64,000 nt of DNA from a virus. Location: positions 1-64,000 of the IMG/VR virus record IMGVR_UViG_3300042261_000868; one strand, written 5' to 3'. The notes under the pieces were generated by a model that made no database searches, had not been told where the DNA came from, and was given only the letters and a program-made list of their open reading frames with translations. Shown here in pieces: positions 1,139 through 17,045 of the stretch (positions are counted from its first letter, which is position 1; each line of letters starts with the position of its first letter). The position numbers and the translations under genes are program-made.

Positions 1139-1540
1139 ATGAGTGAAGAAAATTTTGATTTTGGCATAAGAGTTGAACTACTTGTTGATGAACCAATGGT
1201 ACACGAAAACCTTGAAAGAATAGGTATCGTTAATAAACAAGATAAAATAATTTATCCTAGTTGCTACCTAAGAAAACAACAAGCTAAAGATGGCTCTGCT
1301 GAGTATGTTATAGTCCACTTTAAGGAACTCTTTGCCCTCCAAGGCAAACCAAGTACCTTTAATAAACTTGACGCTATTCGTCGTAATACAATTGTTTATT
1401 GCTTACAGAAGTGGAATCTTGTCAAAGCAATAAATCCAGAAGATATCTCACAGATAACAAAGAAGAAGATTGATGTTATCAAACACTGTAATAAATCTCA
1501 ATATCAAATAATTCATAAATTTAGACATAATAGACAGTAA
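1139..1540 (+). CDS. regA: RegA translational repressor
   Basis: ENLERIGI...IYPSCYL...YVIVHFKELFALQGK...RRNTI...KWNL, the RegA signature. Confidence 0.9.
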   Translation: MSEENFDFGIRVELLVDEPMVHENLERIGIVNKQDKIIYPSCYLRKQQAKDGSAEYVIVHFKELFALQGKPSTFNKLDAIRRNTIVYCLQKWNLVKAINPEDISQITKKKIDVIKHCNKSQYQIIHKFRHNRQ

Positions 1541-11483: not shown

Positions 11484-12140
11484 ATGTCTTATAACGATGA
11501 CGCAAAAATGAAGCTTCTTAAAGAGGCATGGCAGAAGATGGAAGAAGGCGATATTACATATAACGCCAAGAAAACCCCTGCCCCAGAAGGTCTTAAGGGA
11601 ACTAAGGCAACTGGAACCGCTGTTCCACAAGGTCCTGGTGCAAGAGCAACCGTTGCAAAAGCAACCTCTGGAGCTGAGAATCTCGCAGAAGGTGAAGAGG
11701 AAGATACTGGCGCTCCCGCTGGTGCTGCTGATATTGGTGCTGGCGATGCTGGTGCCGTTGATGCTGATGCTGCAATGGATGGCATTGACACCGATCCAGC
11801 AATGGGCGACCCAGCAGCCGCAGTTGGCTCCCCATGGGACCAGCTTGTTGCCGCAGTTGAACAGATGAAAGCCGCTCTTGAGGCAATTGCTGCCGAAGAG
11901 TCGGGCGAAGCCGAACATATGGGTGACGAAGATTTAGGCGCAGAAGGTGATGTTGATATGGACGGTGAAGAACCACCTATCGCAGAAGTCGCTGCTGGCT
12001 ACCTTGAAGAAGCCAAGAAAGTCATGGAGAAGAAAGCCAAGGCTGTCAAGACTGTCAAGGAAGAGAAGAAAGAAGGAGCCAAGACTGCTCCAAAAGCTTT
12101 CGGTGGAAAGCAAGCTCCTCCATTCGTCAAGAAGAAATAA
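11484..12140 (+). CDS. Acidic Ala/Gly-rich late protein with basic C-terminal tail (candidate head core/internal protein)
   Basis: Late promoter, strong RBS and own terminator; D/E/A/G-rich middle, Lys-rich end; LKE and LEE possible prohead-protease sites. Confidence 0.6.
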   Translation: MSYNDDAKMKLLKEAWQKMEEGDITYNAKKTPAPEGLKGTKATGTAVPQGPGARATVAKATSGAENLAEGEEEDTGAPAGAADIGAGDAGAVDADAAMDGIDTDPAMGDPAAAVGSPWDQLVAAVEQMKAALEAIAAEESGEAEHMGDEDLGAEGDVDMDGEEPPIAEVAAGYLEEAKKVMEKKAKAVKTVKEEKKEGAKTAPKAFGGKQAPPFVKKK

Positions 12141-12165
12141 TTAAGTAATCCCGTTATAGGATAAG

Positions 12166-12199
12166 TAAAGGTGTGGCATTTGTCACACCTTTATTTTTT
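12166..12199 (+). terminator. Intrinsic terminator
   Basis: taaaggtgtggca-tt-tgtcacaccttta followed by a T-tract. Confidence 0.8.
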
Positions 12200-12206
12200 G
12201 GTATTT

Positions 12207-12231
12207 TGGTATAATACTTAAAGTATAAATA
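12207..12231 (+). promoter_or_regulatory. Tandem promoters: extended -10 (TGGTATAAT) and late TATAAATA
   Basis: TGGTATAAT 12207-12215 and TATAAATA 12224-12231 before ATG 12252. Confidence 0.6.
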
Positions 12232-12251: not shown

Positions 12252-15200
12252 ATGATGATATTAGAAAGTGGATCTGTTGCAAAAGACAGAATTTTACAAG
12301 ACGATATAGTTAATGCTTTTAATACTGTATTAGAGATAGTTTCCTTTCTAAAAACAAACGGTTTAATAAAAGAAGACCCTCAATTCAATCTTGGTTCAAC
12401 TAAGATTGCCTATAGAATTTTCCAAAAGAAACTCAATAAGGTTATTGATGATATTGATAATGAAGACCTTAATAAAGCAGAATTAAAGAGACTTGAGGAT
12501 GGTTTTGGTGACTTAGACATTGATATTGTTTTGGTAGACGGAGTAACTCTTGATGATGTTGAGACAAAAATAACAGAGAAGTTTGGAGATAAGATTTGGA
12601 AAGTAGCGCCGAAGGGAGAAAGAGCACCAGGACAACTTCATTACGGCTTCAAAATAGGAAATAAAGTTCACCAAGTTGACTTTGTGGAACTTAAGGGTGA
12701 AGAGGATAGAAAAGTCAGAGAGTATTTCAGTGGTAGTAGTGCCACGGATGAAGCCCATGGTATCAAAGGACTCTTCAACAAAGAGATGCATTATGCTCTT
12801 TCCAATATGGTTGAACCAAACGCTATTATCAATACCTTTGCTAAAAAAGAAGGAAAACCATTCAACGATAAAGCCAAGGAATATGATATCCTTGAGAAAA
12901 AGGAACTCGCGTTTTTTACTCAAGAAATCAAAGACGAGAAAATCAGCAAAAATTATGTTGTGCAAGTTGAAGGTAAAAAATATCCAGTAGTCGCATCGAC
13001 CAAAGGCAAACTCAAGCTAGGTGGGGAAATCACCGATGAAGAAAACATTGATGTGACCCCTTCTATGGAAATAGAAGCTGCTAAAGCTTCTTTCGTGATC
13101 ATAACCAGAAGAAAAGTGAGTTTAATTGAGTCTAAATTACAAGAGAAATATGGTATCACCTTTCGTCTCTATCTCTACCGCCAGAAATTCAAAGAATCTG
13201 AAGGAAAAGTTAAAACATCTCTTGAAGCGGCACCTAAGAAGGTAGTTCTTGATTATATTCCGCTTTCAGAACCAGATAGTGTCATTAAGGTACTTTTAGG
13301 TGACAAAGCAACCACCAATGAACTTTTCAGCGCCGTAGAGACTGCTAAGTATATTGGCAAGAACTTCGCTGACGATGAGAAACTTGAGTTTTGGGATATG
13401 TTCGTTGAGCAGGCTATCGAGAAGAGAAATAAACCCCGTGTGGACAGAAAAACAAGACAACCAGTTTTAAACCCAGACACGGGAAAACCAGAAATAGTCG
13501 GACAAGTTGATGAAAAGAAATACGATGCCTCTATGAGACTCTTGGGTAAATTTATTGGAATGGATAAGATTCTTGGTGATGATTTTTATGTACTTCCAAA
13601 ATCAGACACTTCTGAAGTTGATGGGGTTATTAAAGAAACTTATAACTCTCTTGTCTTTAATGAAGCAGAATCTATTCGTACTGGCATTGGTCGCTTTGAT
13701 GGAACGGGTAAAGTTTCTGGTGATGATTTCCTCAAAGCACTCAAGGCACTTTACCCATATGTTAAGGAAGACGGTTCCCTACATCCAAACGAAGCACCAA
13801 ATATTGATATCGTAGAGAAGGTTGACTCTTCTTTTTGTCACTTCGGAGTAAATAAAGAAGGTAAATTCTTCCTTGCCTCAAGCAATAGTGGAGAAGTAAC
13901 CGAAGAAAACTTTGAACACAAATTTAAGAATAACCCAGACTTCCTTGAATCTTTCAGATTCCTCAAGGACCACAAGTTACTTCATGTTGTTTTAAAGAAC
14001 ATTTCCAAGGAAATTGGTAAACCCGTTAAGTTTGAAGCGGAGATATTACCTATTCTTACTTATACACCAGACGAAGCGGGTAATGTTACCTTCGTTGGTA
14101 CGAAGTATTCAAAGGAGAAACTTGGTGAAAAAGGTGCCTTTGTGGTGTTCAAAGCACAAGTGTATGAAGGCGATGAATGGATCAGAATCCCATCAAGACA
14201 TCAAAAGAAAATGATTTCCGATGTTGTTGATGCTGATAGTAAGGAATGGAGAATTCTTTCTAATGATGTTCATATGAAAGTTAACCAAGATGTGAATTTT
14301 GGTGTAGACTTTAATCAACTTGACAAGTACCTTGGCACCGATAGTGGCTTTAAGAATCTTCAAGACCTCATGGATGCTAAAATGACTCCAGAGAAGCGTA
14401 GAGTTAAGGAGATATTGAGTGACATAAGAGCAAAGATGCAAGTTGCTCTTGATGGTCTTTCAAATTCATTAACTTCTAATATAGGTAATGATTTTATTGA
14501 GGGAGTCGTTCTTCGCATTAAAGATGAGGACGGACAAGTAATGGAAATCAAGGGAACTTCCGAGAAGTTCTCCAAGAATAAGGAAACACTTTGGAAGCAC
14601 CGCGACCAACTTGAGGAACTTTATGATAATTTCAAGAATTCTATAAAGACTAATGTATTACACCTCAAGCTTACTACAGATCGATCCATTAACCAAACAT
14701 TCCTTGATACTCTTCAAGAATTTGACGCAAGGGGAACTTCTAAGGAAGAAGTTACTGAAAAATTCATGGTAGCAGTTATCAATAAGTTAATTGATAAAAA
14801 TGCCGATTTCTCAAATGTCAAGAAGGACGCTGTTAAAATCGTAAGAGAATATAAAGGTTCTTTAAATGGTCTTAAGCAAGACTTTAAAGCAAATGCAGAA
14901 TCGTTTGATGTTAACTCTGCTAGAAAAACCAAAGAAGCATTTAGTATCTATGGGGATAAATTTGAAACACTCTTTAATATATTATTAACTGAGAGTGACA
15001 ATGACCTCAAATATGTTTTAGATTGCTTCAATGCTATCTATGAGGGTAAAGCAAAGAACCTTTTGGGTACTTTAGAACCAGAAACCGATATACAAACCAA
15101 GAAATGCGCCCTTTGGGTGGGTCGTGCTCAACCTTGGCACAAAGGTCATGATGCAATGGTTAAAATTGGACTCAATAAGGCAGAAGTTGTTTTCGTGGTT

Positions 15201-17045
15201 ATCGTTAAGGGCACAGAGTCGGGTCAAAACCAAGATAAGAATCCAATGAGTGCAGAAACCCAAAAGGAACTTATAAGGTCACTTTATCCAAATGGGGAAG
15301 TTATTGTTTGTGATAACCACCCAACTAAAGCAAGTTTACCTTTCATAATGGTAGAGTTAGACAAGCAAGGATTGGAAGCGGTTGCTTGGTTAGTTGGCGA
15401 AGATAGAAAAGAAGCCTACAAAGGTGAAATAACAAGATTCAATTTTAGTCAGTGGAGTCAAGGACATAAGTATGTTCCAGTTAGACCAAACATCGAATTT
15501 GTTATAACCCCTCGCCTCGCTAGTGCAACTGATGCGAGAGAGATGGCAAAACAAGTCCCTTTTGAGGAGTGGGTGAAAAACTTTGCTCCAGAAGGTTTAT
15601 CTAATGCTGGTAGAAACGCATATAAGAAGGCATATGCAGAGATTCGCGGTCCAGTTGAAGAGGAAACCCGTAATCAAATACTAGAAAACTTTAAAAAAGA
15701 AAAAGACAGCAAAAAAAAAGTTAAGTCAGTAGAACCCTCAATTGAGGACACCCCAGACGATGAACAACCAGATTCACTTGAGAAACCAGAAGTTACTGTT
15801 AAACCAGAAGAAAAAGAATTATATTTTACTAACAAGGAAACTTTGGCGATTGAATTGAGAAGTCTTTTAAACATTTTTGATAATAAAAAAACAGGCATTC
15901 CAGAAGAAACAATAAAAACAGAATTGTCAAAATTTAATGACCCAAATTTTGCCCCATCTTTTTCCCCAGAATTAAAAGAAGCAATAAAATTAATTCTTGA
16001 ATCAATTGAAATACCCATCATTGAAGAAAACCCAGATAAAGAGTTACCAGAAGTTTCGTTAGAGGAAAAAAGATTCTTAGAACAATATTTTGCTGAAATA
16101 ATCGCACCATTAGCACTTAAATATCCTAACCTAATAACTAATAAGGACAGATATGATGAAATAAGCACTACTGTCGGATATGATTGGATCAGCACAAAGG
16201 CAATTAAGTATCCCAAAGATGTATCAAATAATTTATATGATTCTATTTTGATTGGTGACTTTAATCATATGTTAATTTCATCAAAGAATAGTTCAAGTGG
16301 CGCTGCGGCTAGTATTAATACCCTTTACAAATCATTTAATGAACTAGATAAAGAAAATTTAAACCCAGAATATGTAGAAGAACACGCCATAGAAAATAAA
16401 GAAACGAAACATTCGGCTTTAGAAATTATTAATGAATTATTAAATAAACCAAAAACAGAGATTCCATTAAAAGAGTCTACACTTACTGAAAAAAGATTAA
16501 TTACTAGTCAAACTCTATGGGCATATAGTGCATTAGTTCTCGCTAAGTTTACTATAGGCGGATTTACCGACCAAACAAAAAATGACATAGAACATATTTT
16601 AGATTTTGTTCGTAAAACTGTTGGAAACAATAAAATAAACGATTACGAAATCGGAAGAAAAAAACTCTGGGATATTTTGAAAGTTTTGCCAGAGAAGCAA
16701 CTTGTTATGAAAATTAGAGAAAGTCTAAATAGAAAAGATGATGGTATTGGATATGTCTACGGTGTAATTAGTGTAATATCATATTATGCCGCCAATAAAC
16801 TTTCCGAGTCTACATTAGCTAAACCAATCTCTAATTTATTAAGGGAGTTATTAACGAAGTCAAGCATTATGCAGATGAATGCAACGTATGAAAATAATGT
16901 TTTAAAATTTAAGTTAATTCACCCATTGACAATTAAAGAAGGTTTGATAAAATTAGACGGTGGACACAATTATTTCCGTGCCAGTTCTAAATCTGGACAC
17001 AGATCAAGTCCTTCTGGCGGTATTGCTTTTAAATTACCAAATTGA
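12252..17045 (+). CDS. Multidomain protein: Pol-beta-type NTase + ATP-grasp RNA/DNA ligase-like NTase + HxGH (NMNAT/cytidylyltransferase-like) NTase + possible PD-(D/E)XK domain
   Basis: LGS...GDLDID...QVDF (aa ~47-145); EKVDS, FEAEIL, FVVF, IEGVVLR, EIKG (aa ~520-770); GRAQPWHKGH, KNPMS, VGEDR, SATDAR (aa ~955-1100); EIIAP...NNLYDS...ISSK (aa ~1280-1345). Confidence 0.75.
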   Translation: MMILESGSVAKDRILQDDIVNAFNTVLEIVSFLKTNGLIKEDPQFNLGSTKIAYRIFQKKLNKVIDDIDNEDLNKAELKRLEDGFGDLDIDIVLVDGVTLDDVETKITEKFGDKIWKVAPKGERAPGQLHYGFKIGNKVHQVDFVELKGEEDRKVREYFSGSSATDEAHGIKGLFNKEMHYALSNMVEPNAIINTFAKKEGKPFNDKAKEYDILEKKELAFFTQEIKDEKISKNYVVQVEGKKYPVVASTKGKLKLGGEITDEENIDVTPSMEIEAAKASFVIITRRKVSLIESKLQEKYGITFRLYLYRQKFKESEGKVKTSLEAAPKKVVLDYIPLSEPDSVIKVLLGDKATTNELFSAVETAKYIGKNFADDEKLEFWDMFVEQAIEKRNKPRVDRKTRQPVLNPDTGKPEIVGQVDEKKYDASMRLLGKFIGMDKILGDDFYVLPKSDTSEVDGVIKETYNSLVFNEAESIRTGIGRFDGTGKVSGDDFLKALKALYPYVKEDGSLHPNEAPNIDIVEKVDSSFCHFGVNKEGKFFLASSNSGEVTEENFEHKFKNNPDFLESFRFLKDHKLLHVVLKNISKEIGKPVKFEAEILPILTYTPDEAGNVTFVGTKYSKEKLGEKGAFVVFKAQVYEGDEWIRIPSRHQKKMISDVVDADSKEWRILSNDVHMKVNQDVNFGVDFNQLDKYLGTDSGFKNLQDLMDAKMTPEKRRVKEILSDIRAKMQVALDGLSNSLTSNIGNDFIEGVVLRIKDEDGQVMEIKGTSEKFSKNKETLWKHRDQLEELYDNFKNSIKTNVLHLKLTTDRSINQTFLDTLQEFDARGTSKEEVTEKFMVAVINKLIDKNADFSNVKKDAVKIVREYKGSLNGLKQDFKANAESFDVNSARKTKEAFSIYGDKFETLFNILLTESDNDLKYVLDCFNAIYEGKAKNLLGTLEPETDIQTKKCALWVGRAQPWHKGHDAMVKIGLNKAEVVFVVIVKGTESGQNQDKNPMSAETQKELIRSLYPNGEVIVCDNHPTKASLPFIMVELDKQGLEAVAWLVGEDRKEAYKGEITRFNFSQWSQGHKYVPVRPNIEFVITPRLASATDAREMAKQVPFEEWVKNFAPEGLSNAGRNAYKKAYAEIRGPVEEETRNQILENFKKEKDSKKKVKSVEPSIEDTPDDEQPDSLEKPEVTVKPEEKELYFTNKETLAIELRSLLNIFDNKKTGIPEETIKTELSKFNDPNFAPSFSPELKEAIKLILESIEIPIIEENPDKELPEVSLEEKRFLEQYFAEIIAPLALKYPNLITNKDRYDEISTTVGYDWISTKAIKYPKDVSNNLYDSILIGDFNHMLISSKNSSSGAAASINTLYKSFNELDKENLNPEYVEEHAIENKETKHSALEIINELLNKPKTEIPLKESTLTEKRLITSQTLWAYSALVLAKFTIGGFTDQTKNDIEHILDFVRKTVGNNKINDYEIGRKKLWDILKVLPEKQLVMKIRESLNRKDDGIGYVYGVISVISYYAANKLSESTLAKPISNLLRELLTKSSIMQMNATYENNVLKFKLIHPLTIKEGLIKLDGGHNYFRASSKSGHRSSPSGGIAFKLPN

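What the first reader, a model, noticed from the sequence alone, without database searches (positions are those of the whole stretch)
12252..17045. 1597-aa late protein fusing three unrelated nucleotidyltransferase folds plus a possible nuclease
Seen in order: Pol-beta-type NTase (LGS...GDLDID, QVD); ATP-grasp covalent NTase of the RNA/DNA ligase class (motif I variant EKVDS, then EAE, FVVF, EGVV, K); HxGH Rossmann NTase (GRAQPWHKGH, VGEDR, SATDAR); and, after an acidic linker, an E...D...SSK domain resembling PD-(D/E)XK. A late promoter precedes it. I/L/F-x-E sites lie at the N-terminus (MILE) and near domain borders (IKE/FNE around aa 460-471, ILE around aa 1145). Known: the T4 gp21 protease cleaves head-packaged proteins after L/I-x-E. 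Inference: a capsid-packaged polyprotein matured into enzymes injected with the DNA, perhaps for RNA/tRNA repair, NMPylation of host targets, or anti-defence nucleotide chemistry.
Basis: partly seen in the sequence, partly recalled or inferred. Interest (0 to 1): 0.8.

Follow-up and report, generated by a model that had tools for sequence, protein, structure and literature searches.

The report
Head-targeted phage nucleic-acid repair polyprotein
A 1597-residue late protein of an uncultured T4-like phage joins a polymerase-beta-type nucleotidyltransferase, an RNA-ligase-type enzyme, an NMNAT-like enzyme and an orphan domain. The short motifs at its start and domain borders match the signals T4 uses to load proteins into the capsid and cut them, so it is probably an injected repair or counter-defence kit.

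Summary

- **aa 12-200 and ~340-390:** Pol-beta-superfamily NTase with the G-S / DxDxD / D set invariant.
- **aa 476-780:** RNA-ligase-type adenylyltransferase (pLDDT 94; Z 12 to Naegleria, REL1 and T4 Rnl2 ligases), with K523, E597, E750-G751 and K767 invariant, followed by a helical domain.
- **aa 946-1140:** NadM/NadR-like HxGH NTase.
- **C-terminal domain:** an orphan with conserved E...D...SSK. The nuclease reading remains only a lead.

The protein belongs to a family found almost only in uncultured T4-like phages. Leaders and junctions carry [ILVM]-x-E, the gp21 prohead-protease site:
- 29/34 N-termini have it, and 5/34 start just after it.
- 33/36 N/ligase junctions have it.
- 26/32 stand-alone relatives of the C domain begin with a leader obeying the T4 capsid-targeting rule (positions 4, 7, 8, 10), against 0/316 background ORFs.

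Two related records, the two most complete checked, encode gp21 homologues.

Capsid packaging and cleavage are therefore supported by comparison only (about 0.55). RNA-end repair in the RlaP-plus-ligase manner is the best functional guess. An earlier scan note on this genome flags a CCA enzyme with a similar leader.

The parts
12163..12196 (+). Terminator-like hairpin (15-bp stem plus T run) closing the upstream gene
   Evidence: sequence
12224..12231 (+). TATAAATA, a T4-type late-promoter-like box 21 nt upstream of the ATG
   Evidence: In the window, 8 of 11 copies lie 8-70 nt upstream of ORF starts on the same strand. In 7 of 7 syntenic related loci the box precedes the first family gene.
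12252..17045 (+). ORF of 1597 aa (181 kDa), stop codon included
12252..12266 (+). Leader MMILE (aa 1-5), ending in I-L-E just before S-G-S; candidate propeptide and gp21-type site
   Evidence: 29/34 N-domain homologues have a leader of variable length ending [LIVM]xE before [GAS]G, and 5/34 start at MGG. pLDDT is below 50 for aa 1-7.
12267..13628 (+). N module (aa 6-459): Pol-beta-superfamily NTase, with palm at aa ~12-200, a poorly predicted insert at aa ~230-335 and a helical lobe at aa ~340-392
   Evidence: Model pLDDT 70.9. Foldseek top hits are Pol lambda and Pol beta, E 3e-3, prob 1.0. Ranks 1-49 of the 50 listed VIA rows are Pol-beta-superfamily NTases, Z 8.1-5.2. G48, S49, G86, D87, D89, D91, Q141, D143, D166, K172 and G173 are invariant.
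13629..13664 (+). Disordered N/M linker with I-K-E (aa 460-462) and F-N-E (aa 469-471); candidate cleavage sites
   Evidence: pLDDT is below 50 for aa 452-475. 33 of 36 fused homologues have [LIVM]xE here, directly before R-x-G-I-G-R-F. Related phages split the gene exactly here.
13677..14591 (+). M module, adenylyltransferase domain of RNA-ligase type (aa 476-780): motif I K523, III E597, IIIa F614/Y619/F633, IV E750-G751, V K767
   Evidence: Model pLDDT 93.9. Foldseek: T4 Rnl2 E 4e-7, then REL1, Trl1, Rnl3, Rnl1 and NgrRnl. VIA: Z 12.1 to NgrRnl (194 aa, rmsd 3.4), 11.3 to REL1, 11.2 to Rnl2. Invariant residues.
14592..15086 (+). All-helical domain after the ligase core (aa 781-945)
   Evidence: DSSP of the model. 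It aligns in part with the C-terminal domains of T4 Rnl2 and Rnl1 (rows 16 and 19).
15087..15671 (+). H module (aa 946-1140): HxGH (HIGH) Rossmann NTase of NadM/NadR/archaeal-NMNAT type; H963-x-G965-H966 and S1091-x-T1093-x-x-R1096
   Evidence: PHROG 395, E 2e-12. PF01467 E 1.3e-3 here, matched in 23/34 homologues with best E 2.7e-8. Family profile against PDB NMNATs 2qjt, 2qjo and 1f9a, E 2.6e-4 to 1e-2. Never split from M in any locus.
15678..15686 (+). I-L-E (aa 1143-1145) after the H module; candidate cleavage site
   Evidence: I-x-E is conserved in all five members of the closest subfamily, two of which end 7-9 residues later. Other subfamilies have [ILV]xE-[MI]S..GGGAV at the equivalent place in 39/43.
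15687..15851 (+). Charged Lys/Glu/Asp/Pro-rich linker (aa 1146-1200)
   Evidence: sequence
15852..17042 (+). C module (aa 1201-1597): orphan domain with conserved E1282, P1286, D1330-S1331 and S1343-S1344-K1345; possible restriction-endonuclease-like fold
   Evidence: HMMER over 1.84 billion representatives gave 6 hits. A profile search found a family of ~430-aa stand-alone phage proteins. Conserved residues. No Pfam, PHROG or PDB match. ESM-Atlas feature lead to R-HINP1I (0.90) and RE_HaeIII (0.88).

Best explanation
**What is shown.**
- The gene is a late-promoter-driven fusion of four modules.
- In related uncultured T4-like phages, adjacent genes encode these modules separately.
- The modules are a Pol-beta-superfamily nucleotidyltransferase, an RNA-ligase-type lysine adenylyltransferase that is always fused to an NMNAT-like HxGH nucleotidyltransferase, and an orphan C-terminal domain.
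- All catalytic motifs of the three nucleotidyltransferases are intact.

**What is inferred from comparison.**
- The protein is taken into the prohead.
- A gp21-type prohead protease cuts it after Glu in [ILVM]-x-E motifs: after E5, at E462 or E471, and probably at E1145.
- This would give pieces of about 53, 76 and 51 kDa, which leave the capsid with the DNA.

**What is inferred from the folds and from known systems.**
- In the newly infected cell the Pol-beta enzyme restores nucleotides at a damaged 3' end and the ligase seals the break. RlaP with Rnl-type ligases does this in tRNA/RNA repair.
- The HxGH domain makes or regenerates an adenylylated nucleotide, most simply NAD+ from NMN and ATP.
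- The C domain may trim or cut nucleic acid.

The kit would let the phage answer tRNA-cleaving or NAD+-depleting defences before any phage gene is expressed.
For: **Folds and motifs:** (ligase; Pol-beta NTase; HxGH).

**Modularity:**
- In L003, L004, L007, L009, L011, L014, L015 and L019 the N module and the M-H module are separate genes, divided by a TAA stop and 0-9 nt.
- A C-domain relative lies three genes downstream of M-H in L004.

**Cleavage and targeting signals:**
- 29/34 N-termini have a leader of 4-19 residues ending [LIVM]xE before [GAS]G. The other 5 start at MGG, so the Glu is dispensable for the enzyme.
- 33/36 fused members have [LIVM]xE-[GA] directly before RxGIGRF, in a linker with pLDDT below 50.
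- Separately encoded M-H proteins of L011, L014 and L015 have their own leaders (MSFxxFY...[MVI]xE).
- 26/32 stand-alone C-domain relatives start M-x-x-F-x-x-[FY]-[LIV]-x-E, against 0/316 background ORFs. These are the positions 4 and 7 (targeting) and 8 and 10 (processing) defined for the T4 capsid-targeting sequence (PMC9026906).
- gp21 cuts after Glu in I/LxE (PMC12991175).

**T4-like head machinery in relatives:**
- gp21 homologues (PF03420, E 1.6e-32 and 2.6e-30) occur in the 92%- and 55%-complete related records.
- Those records also carry gp23-type capsid proteins. The one translated, from the 92%-complete record, has an [LIV]xE-rich propeptide.

**Late expression:**

**Same genome:** a CCA-adding enzyme has a late box and a CTS-like N-terminus.

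**Precedent for the function:** RlaP Pol-beta NTases work with RNA ligases in repair (PMC7824862, PMC12776372).
Against: - No virion proteomics exists, and no cultured phage carries the N or M module.
- The 80.6-kb record (34% complete) holds no gp21 or head genes.
- This protein's own leader is only MMILE and lacks the aromatic CTS positions.
- The residue three before E471 is Phe, not Ile or Leu, although I-K-E lies nine residues upstream.
- The MPREGIGRF subgroup of M-H proteins has no leader.
- The I-x-E after the H module is kept even in relatives that end 7-9 residues later, so it may be structural.
- TATAAATA also precedes non-virion genes such as regA and IF3.
- The neighbours are glycosyltransferases and ribonucleotide reductase, not head genes.
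- Homologues are related to each other, so the counts are not independent events.
- No kinase or phosphatase end-healing domain was found, which weakens a classic tRNA-repair pathway.
- The N module does not match RlaP (PF10127).
Confidence: 0.5

Rival explanations
1. The protein is an unprocessed, cytoplasmic late multi-enzyme. It stays whole in the infected cell and repairs RNA during late infection. The [ILVM]xE motifs are structural or linker features with no role in proteolysis or packaging.
For: The neighbours are metabolic genes. Late boxes also precede regA and IF3. The total count of [LI]xE sites is not above chance. M-H genes of one subgroup lack any leader. I-x-E after the H module is kept in proteins that end just after it.
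Against: The motif is missing exactly where a protein starts at that point (MGG..., MPREGIGRF). It lies in low-confidence, length-variable segments. It recurs as a T4-CTS-like decapeptide on separately encoded modules (26/32 against 0/316). Related phages encode gp21.
Confidence: 0.25
2. The protein is a DNA (or RNA/DNA hybrid) gap-filling and nick-sealing kit for the phage genome. A minimal Pol X-like polymerase fills gaps, possibly with ribonucleotides. An Rnl2/Rnl5-like nick-sealing ligase closes them. The C domain is a nuclease that processes ends, analogous to bacterial LigD. The protein may or may not be packaged.
For: Foldseek ranks Pol lambda and Pol beta first. VIA aligns 149 of 176 residues of ASFV Pol X and 156-170 residues of TdT and Pol beta across both lobes (aa 3-365), against about 100 residues for the terminal uridylyltransferases. 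Giant-virus Pol X proteins appear in BFVD. The nearest ligases (NgrRnl, Rnl2, REL1) are duplex nick sealers (PMC4408790).
Against: Z scores of Pol X proteins and template-independent NTases are tied (8.1-6.7). No 8-kDa or HhH DNA-binding domain was found. The ligase has a helical rather than an OB C-domain, as in RNA ligases. The genome already encodes an NAD-dependent DNA ligase. The same genome carries tRNA-related functions, including a CCA enzyme.
Confidence: 0.2
3. The main role is nucleotide or NAD+ chemistry against defence systems. The HxGH domain rebuilds NAD+, and the Pol-beta and ligase-like domains NMPylate host proteins or signalling nucleotides rather than repairing nucleic acids.
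For: The HxGH domain is nearest to NadM/NadR NMNATs. Phage NAD+ salvage and counter-nucleotide systems are known (PMC7824862). The Pol-beta superfamily includes CD-NTases and MenT-type toxins, which are among the VIA matches.
Against: The ligase fold and its full motif set I-V point to polynucleotide ligation. No Nampt or other NMN-producing partner was seen in the loci. Only the first ~60 residues of the H domain align with NMNATs by sequence, so the substrate is open.
Confidence: 0.1

Closest known systems
T4 internal proteins IPI-III and Alt (capsid-targeting sequence, gp21 processing, ejection with the DNA)
   Same: The phage background is T4-like and the gene has a late promoter box. N-terminal leaders end in [IL]-x-E. 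Stand-alone relatives of the C module obey the 4/7/8/10 rule of the T4 capsid-targeting sequence. Like Alt, the cargo is enzymatic.
   Different: The cargo is three nucleotidyltransferases plus an orphan domain, not an ADP-ribosyltransferase or small basic proteins. Candidate cleavage sites also lie between modules, which would make it a polyprotein. Packaging has not been shown.
RlaP (PF10127) Pol-beta NTase with Rnl-type RNA ligases in phage and bacterial RNA repair
   Same: A Pol-beta-superfamily NTase is genetically coupled to an RNA-ligase-fold enzyme, either fused or as the adjacent gene. The predicted logic is to add missing 3' nucleotides and then seal.
   Different: The N module gives no PF10127 match, and its two lobes resemble minimal Pol X. 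The ligase matches no Pfam or PHROG ligase family. An HxGH NTase is always fused to it. No kinase or phosphatase healing domain was found.
Rnl2/REL1 and Rnl5 (Naegleria, Deinococcus) nick-sealing RNA ligases
   Same: The adenylyltransferase fold matches (Z 11-12). Motifs I, III, IIIa, IV and V are present with an invariant Lys. An all-helical domain follows the core, as in Rnl2 and Rnl1.
   Different: Sequence identity is about 10-14%. Motif I reads K-[VM]-D-S. A helical insert of about 100 residues lies between motifs IIIa and IV. The flanking domains differ.
NadM/NadR/archaeal NMN adenylyltransferases and the 'cytidylyltransferase' genes of T4-like cyanophages
   Same: The GRxQPxHxGH and SxTxxR motifs are shared. 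There are weak direct sequence matches.
   Different: The domain is fused to a ligase. Only the N-terminal part aligns with solved NMNATs, and the substrate is untested.
Polyvalent proteins of phages and conjugative elements (Iyer et al. 2017, PMC5512222)
   Same: Several unrelated enzymatic domains sit in one polypeptide that is predicted to enter the host with the DNA.
   Different: None of the hub domains (MuF, zincin-like peptidase, ArdC) was found. Targeting and cutting would rely on the T4-type leader and prohead protease.
Bacterial LigD (polymerase, ligase and phosphoesterase domains in one protein)
   Same: A polymerase-like NTase, a ligase and a possible end-processing domain are combined in one chain.
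   Different: The LigD polymerase is a primase-type fold and its ligase is a DNA ligase with an OB domain. There is no homology beyond the ligase superfamily.

Membership tests
Covalent nucleotidyltransferases (ATP-dependent RNA/DNA ligase and capping-enzyme superfamily) | Adenylyltransferase fold | tested here: met
   Model pLDDT 93.9. Foldseek E 4e-7 to T4 Rnl2. VIA Z 12.1 to NgrRnl over 194 aa at rmsd 3.4.
Covalent nucleotidyltransferases (ATP-dependent RNA/DNA ligase and capping-enzyme superfamily) | Motif I lysine (KxDG-type) and motifs III, IIIa, IV (EG) and V (K), in order | tested here: met
   E522-K523-x-D525-S526, E597, F614/Y619/F633, E750-G751 and K767-G768 are invariant in 49 sequences and fall on the expected strands. 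Motif I ends in Ser, not Gly.
Covalent nucleotidyltransferases (ATP-dependent RNA/DNA ligase and capping-enzyme superfamily) | Lysyl-AMP formation and strand joining | not testable with these tools
   Needs enzymology.
Named RNA ligase families (Rnl1, Rnl2, Rnl3, Rnl5; Pfam and PHROG ligase models) | Sequence-profile match to a curated ligase family | tested here: not met
   Pfam at E up to 1 and PHROGs at E up to 0.01 gave no ligase family for this protein; Pfam at E up to 0.01 gave none for 34 homologues. tblastn against 50,697 phage records found nothing for the ligase part.
Pol-beta nucleotidyltransferase superfamily | Palm fold with G-[GS], DxD and a third carboxylate | tested here: met
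   Ranks 1-49 of the 50 listed VIA rows are superfamily members (Z 8.1-5.2). Foldseek prob 1.0 to Pol lambda and Pol beta. G48-S49, D87, D89, D91 and D143 are invariant. The Z values are middling, so the motif set carries much of the weight.
Family X DNA polymerases | Palm plus C-terminal nucleotide/template-selecting lobe; HhH or 8-kDa DNA-binding domains | tested here: inconclusive
   Both lobes align with ASFV Pol X, TdT and Pol beta (149-170 aa, Z 6.7-8.1), but terminal uridylyltransferases score the same. No HhH or 8-kDa domain was detected.
RlaP (PF10127) | Match to the PF10127 profile | tested here: not met
   No PF10127 hit at E up to 1 for this protein, or at E up to 0.01 for 34 homologues.
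RlaP (PF10127) | Genomic coupling to an RNA ligase | tested here: met
   Fused to, or encoded directly upstream of, the ligase module in all 15 related loci and in the window.
HIGH (HxGH) Rossmann nucleotidyltransferases, NMNAT type | HxGH and ISxTxxR motifs; profile match | tested here: met
   H963-K-G-H966 and S1091-A-T-D-A-R1096. PHROG 395 E 2e-12. PF01467 is below its cut-off here (19.4 against 21 bits) but matches 23/34 homologues, best E 2.7e-8. PDB NMNATs E 2.6e-4.
HIGH (HxGH) Rossmann nucleotidyltransferases, NMNAT type | NMN (or NaMN) as substrate | not testable with these tools
   Only residues ~950-1010 align with solved NMNATs.
PD-(D/E)XK nucleases | Restriction-endonuclease-like fold with E / D / (D,E,Q,S)xK | tested here: inconclusive
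   E1282, D1330 and S1343-S-K1345 are conserved across distant relatives. There is no Pfam, PHROG or PDB match. The ESM-Atlas feature lead to R-HINP1I (0.90) and RE_HaeIII (0.88) is only a lead.
T4-type capsid-targeted, gp21-processed head proteins | N-terminal propeptide ending in [IL]-x-E | tested here: met
   M-M-I-L-E here. 29/34 homologues have such a leader and 5/34 start just after the site.
T4-type capsid-targeted, gp21-processed head proteins | CTS pattern (aromatic residues at positions 4 and 7, hydrophobic at 8, Glu at 10) | tested here: inconclusive
   Not present in this protein's five-residue leader. Present in 26/32 stand-alone relatives of its C module, and in similar form on split M-H and neighbouring genes.
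T4-type capsid-targeted, gp21-processed head proteins | A gp21-type prohead protease in the same phage | tested here: inconclusive
   Not found in the 80.6-kb record, which is 34% complete. Found in 2 of 5 related records, including the 92%-complete one.
T4-type capsid-targeted, gp21-processed head proteins | Presence in virions as cleaved products | not testable with these tools
   No cultured relative and no proteome.

The most novel reading that the evidence does not exclude
A clade of uncultured T4-like phages loads a nucleic-acid end-repair and nucleotide-chemistry toolkit into the capsid by T4-type targeting leaders. The toolkit comprises a Pol X-like NTase, an RNA ligase permanently fused to an NMNAT-like enzyme, a restriction-endonuclease-like domain and, in this genome, perhaps also a CCA-adding enzyme. 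The prohead protease releases the enzymes from a polyprotein, and they are injected with the DNA. tRNA-cleaving or NAD+-depleting abortive-infection systems would then be countered before any phage gene is expressed. This would be the first RNA-repair machinery delivered as virion cargo.
Probability: 0.35. Interest if true: 0.85.

Novelty: new variant of a known kind. Interest (0 to 1): 0.72.

Why it matters
Known T4 capsid cargo is limited to Alt, the small internal proteins and scaffold remnants. RNA-repair enzymes of phages are thought of as proteins made after infection. If this family is packaged and cut as the comparison suggests, several things follow.

- It widens the repertoire of injected phage enzymes to ligases and polymerase-like enzymes.
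- It offers a natural example of a prohead-protease-matured polyprotein in a T4-like phage.
- It gives a ready set of leaders and cleavage sites to test in the T4 packaging system.

Independently of packaging, it defines a new RNA-ligase-like family that is always joined to an NMNAT-like domain. That coupling has no described precedent in the material searched here, and it hints at a link between ligation and NAD+/adenylate supply.

Tried and rejected
Gene contexts came from IMG/VR loci instead.
- **tblastn of the whole protein and of the N piece** against 50,697 phage records gave no match, even at E up to 1 for the N piece. The M-H piece matched only through its HxGH part.
- **Pfam and PHROGs** gave no ligase, NTP_transf_2 or RlaP family for the protein or for 34 homologues.
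- **The family profile against PDB sequences** found only NMNATs, plus low-complexity noise such as SNF5 and huntingtin.
- **C domain:** Pfam, PHROGs, the PDB profile search and the first ESM-Atlas call gave nothing. P0072 was a spurious low-complexity hit.
- **The conserved downstream gene 'fam6'** was tested as a possible homologue of the C domain. It gave no BLAST hit, and no fam6 member appeared in the HMM search of the loci.
- **An H-domain HMM** did not detect the HIGH-like N-terminus of P0053, which rests on motifs and a weak BLAST hit only.
- **PF03420 (gp21)** was not found in the window's own record, which is uninformative at 34% completeness.
- **One scan of 185,579 species genomes** gave a single hit, a mis-binned phage contig, so no cellular operon context is available.
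- **Conserved neighbouring genes** (fam2, fam3, fam4, fam6, fam12, fam16) have no Pfam or PHROG annotation.
- **The raw count of [LI]xE sites** was rejected as evidence, because it is within shuffle expectation.
Full report
**1. The observation**

The window holds one uninterrupted ATG ORF at 12252-17045(+), encoding 1597 residues. The window is the first 64 kb of an 80.6-kb IMG/VR virus record that CheckV rates 34% complete.

The phage is T4-like:
- a RegA homologue (PF01818, E 1e-18);
- a gp5-type baseplate hub, a ribonucleotide reductase and an NAD-dependent DNA ligase;
- the T4 late-promoter box TATAAATA, of which 8 of 11 copies lie 8-70 nt upstream of ORF starts on the same strand.

One copy lies at 12224-12231, 21 nt before the ATG and just after a 15-bp terminator hairpin at 12163-12196. 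The gene is therefore probably its own late transcription unit.

**2. A conserved, phage-only family**

A word-seeded HMMER search found 53 relatives of 918-1612 aa, all from metagenomes, on contigs of up to 326 kb.

No cultured phage among 50,697 records carries the N or ligase parts. tblastn found no match for the whole protein or the N piece, and the M-H piece matched only through its HxGH part, to 'cytidylyltransferase' genes of cyanophages and jumbo phages.

Among one genome each of 185,579 prokaryote species there was a single hit. It is a contig binned as Candidatus Dojkabacteria that is itself a T4-like phage fragment.

**3. The folds**

- **Ligase module (aa 476-945).**
  - With a 49-sequence alignment the model has pLDDT 93.9.
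  - Foldseek ranks T4 Rnl2 first (E 4e-7), then REL1, fungal Trl1, archaeal Rnl3, T4 Rnl1 and the Naegleria ligase.
  - VIA-align gives Z 12.1 to the Naegleria ligase (194 aa, rmsd 3.4), 11.3 to REL1 and 11.2 to Rnl2 for residues 476-780.
  - Residues 781-945 form a helical domain.
  - E522-K523-x-D525, E597, F614, Y619, F633, E750-G751 and K767-G768 are invariant in 49 sequences and lie on the expected strands.
  - This is a complete ligase motif set I, III, IIIa, IV and V, yet no curated ligase family matches by sequence.
- **N module (aa 1-475).**
  - The model is of medium quality (pLDDT 70.9; aa 1-7, 280-333 and 452-475 are below 50).
  - Foldseek's best hits are Pol lambda and Pol beta (E 3e-3, prob 1.0).
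  - In the Foldseek-independent search, ranks 1-49 of the 50 listed chains are Pol-beta-superfamily enzymes, including TdT, TUT7, GLD-2, Pol beta, ASFV Pol X, cGAS-like enzymes and MenT (Z 8.1-5.2).
  - Pol X proteins align over both lobes (149-170 residues, aa 3-365). The uridylyltransferases align over the palm only.
  - G48-S49, D87, D89, D91 and D143 are invariant.
  - The Z values are middling, so the superfamily call rests on fold and motifs together. The subfamily stays open.
  - PF10127 (RlaP) does not match.
- **HxGH module (aa 946-1140).**
  - It matches PHROG 395 (E 2e-12).
  - PF01467 scores below its cut-off here but matches 23/34 homologues, best E 2.7e-8.
  - The family profile matches solved NadM and archaeal NMNATs at E 2.6e-4 to 1e-2.
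  - The HxGH and SxTxxR motifs are intact.
- **C module (aa 1201-1597).**
  - An exhaustive HMMER search returned only six proteins.
  - A profile search then found about 30 stand-alone phage proteins of ~430 aa.
  - E1282, P1286, D1330-S1331 and S1343-S-K1345 are conserved.
  - Pfam, PHROGs and PDB give nothing.
  - The ESM Atlas places a stand-alone member nearest to unnamed viral clusters. The nearest named clusters are R-HINP1I (0.90) and RE_HaeIII (0.88).

**4.

In 15 related loci the family shows repeated gene fission and fusion:
- In L003, L004, L007, L009, L011, L014, L015 and L019 the N module is its own gene of 354-501 aa. A TAA stop and 0-9 nt separate it from the M-H gene, in various frames, so these are true gene splits.
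- A different ~250-aa C-terminal module is fused in L002 and L006 and separate in L005, L008, L010 and L012.
- A relative of the window's C module lies three genes downstream of M-H in L004.
- M and H are never separated.
- In P0053 a HIGH-like domain (motif level only) precedes the N and M modules, so the domain order is permuted.

The modules can therefore work as separate polypeptides, and they belong together functionally.

**5. Leader and junction motifs**

This is the main new evidence.

- **N-terminus.** Of 34 proteins with an N module, 29 carry a leader of 4-19 residues that ends [LIVM]-x-E directly before [GAS]-G. Examples are MMILE|SG, MNNILLE|GG, MQKLKKTIVE|GG and ...DLLSE|GG. The other 5 begin at M-G-G. 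The Glu and the hydrophobic residue are present only when there is something to remove.
- **N/M junction.** 33 of 36 fused members have [LIVM]-x-E-[GA] immediately before the start of the ligase module (R-x-G-I-G-R-F), in a linker of variable length that is modelled with pLDDT below 50. The window's subfamily has [IL]-x-E (I-K-E 460-462) and [FYL]-x-E (F-N-E 469-471).
- **Split forms.** M-H proteins that are encoded separately start either exactly at this point (MPREGIGRF) or with their own leader (MSFYDYFKMNE|KK, MSFNEFYDSTISE|KK). Several split N proteins end in ...G-E.
- **Ranking.** Among about 2350 alignment columns, the most conserved [LIVM]xE positions fall into two groups. Four lie inside the domains, two of them at ligase motifs I and V. 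Three lie at borders: near aa 7, near aa 469, and just after the H module (39/43, as [ILV]xE-[MI]S..GGGAV).
- **Stand-alone C-domain relatives.** 26 of 32 begin M-x-x-F-x-x-[FY]-[LIV]-x-E (for example MKTFKLFLTE|G), against 0 of 316 background ORFs from the same loci. For the T4 capsid-targeting sequence, residues 4 and 7 drive targeting and residues 8 and 10 drive processing (PMC9026906). gp21 cuts after Glu in I/LxE (PMC12991175).
- **Neighbouring genes.** The conserved neighbours fam6 and fam4 carry similar leaders.

**6. The protease and late expression**

The window's own record has no PF03420 match, which says little at 34% completeness. Of five related records, the two most complete (92% and 55%) encode gp21 homologues (E 1.6e-32 and 2.6e-30) and gp23-type capsid proteins. 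I translated the capsid protein of the 92%-complete record. Its first ~60 residues hold seven [LIV]xE sites and end in L-K-E|S.

In the seven loci syntenic with the window, TATAAATA precedes the first family gene.

In the window's genome, a class II CCA-adding enzyme (PF01743, E 3e-20) also has a late box and the N-terminus MDNFQSFFKVLDE|S. This confirms part of an earlier, unchecked note of this scan.

**7. Interpretation**

- **Shown:** the ORF, the three folds with intact catalytic motifs, the family, the gene splits, and the conserved motifs at borders.
- **Inferred with moderate confidence (about 0.55):** the protein is targeted to the prohead and cut by the prohead protease into pieces of about 53, 76 and 51 kDa, which are ejected with the DNA.
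- **Inferred with less confidence:** the N module and the ligase repair broken RNA ends in the manner proposed and partly shown for RlaP with RNA ligases (PMC7824862, PMC12776372). The H module supplies NAD+ or another adenylylated nucleotide. The C module processes nucleic acid.

The Pol X-like two-lobed shape of N and the nick-sealing relatives of the ligase keep a rival open: DNA or hybrid gap repair.

**8. Weaknesses**

- There is no proteome and no cultured relative.
- This protein's leader is only five residues.
- The residue three before E471 is Phe.
- One subgroup of M-H genes has no leader.
- The I-x-E after H persists in relatives that end 7-9 residues later.
- Late boxes also precede regA and an IF3 homologue.
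- The neighbours are glycosyltransferases and nucleotide-metabolism genes.
- The homologues are related to each other, so the counts overstate independent support.
- No end-healing kinase or phosphatase was found.

**9. Novelty**

Capsid-targeted, gp21-processed cargo and RNA-ligase/Pol-beta NTase repair pairs are each known. Polyvalent injected proteins have also been proposed (PMC5512222). Three things are new:
- their combination;
- a ligase-like family always fused to an NMNAT-like domain;
- conserved candidate protease sites between modules.

I rate it a new variant of known kinds, of good interest and readily testable.

Noticed in passing
L018:8884-9444 (-), i.e. 76883-77443 of the window's genome record, beyond the window: A 186-aa homologue of translation initiation factor IF3 (PF05198 E 2e-26, PF00707 E 2e-16) sits behind a TATAAATA box in this phage.
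   Followed up: partly
L018:9525-11219 (-), i.e. 77524-79218 of the genome record: A 564-aa class II CCA-adding/poly(A) polymerase family protein (PF01743 E 3e-20) has a late box and the N-terminus MDNFQSFFKVLDE|S, which resembles a capsid-targeting leader. There is also a weak M78-type peptidase hit at the C-terminus (E 0.009).
   Followed up: partly
window 11484-12140 (+): The gene directly upstream encodes a 218-aa acidic (pI 4.5) Ala/Gly/Asp/Glu-rich protein with its own TATAAATA box (11450) and the leader MSYNDDAKMKLLKE|A. It has no Pfam or PHROG match and could be a scaffold, core or internal head protein.
   Followed up: partly
L003:10605-11876, L004:13764-15050, L007:13770-15053, L011:5899-7170, L015:13214-14518: A conserved unannotated gene of 423-434 aa follows the M-H gene. 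Its products start with CTS-like leaders (MSFSSFCVLNE|A, MGFKDFFKEFELNE|A) followed by G-E-T-M-E-G-I-F-A. There is no Pfam or PHROG match.
   Followed up: partly
L002:8590-8871, L005:8538-8813, L006:8581-8862, L008:8520-8813, L012:5418-5669: Small genes of ~90 aa lie just upstream of the family gene in a second group of loci. All have a leader ending F-L-L-G-E.
   Followed up: no
alignment A1, just after the HxGH module (equivalent to about aa 1145-1165 of the window protein): A short motif [ILV]-x-E-[MI]-S-x-x-G-G-G-A-V is conserved in 39 of 43 homologues, whatever follows it (tails of 15 to 575 residues). Its meaning is unexplained; it could be a cleavage site, a docking motif or a hinge.
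   Followed up: partly
protein P0053 (948 aa, metagenomic): The module order is permuted: a HIGH-like domain (GRFQPPS...SGTQIR; motif level only) comes first, then L-N-E|G-G, then the Pol-beta and ligase modules.
   Followed up: partly
L019 (JANWZV010000006.1, labelled Candidatus Dojkabacteria MAG): This 41-kb contig carries the split family genes with a late box and a clamp-loader-like neighbour. It looks like a T4-like phage contig binned into a bacterial MAG.
   Followed up: partly
L004:9989-9997, L007:9989-9997, L009:9989-9997: The N and M-H genes are separated by TAA plus one codon, in the same frame. The split looks like a simple nonsense event in a formerly fused gene.
   Followed up: no
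window 1139-1540 (+): A RegA-type translational repressor homologue (PF01818 E 1e-18) lies behind a TATAAATA box. It is another marker of T4-like ancestry.
   Followed up: no
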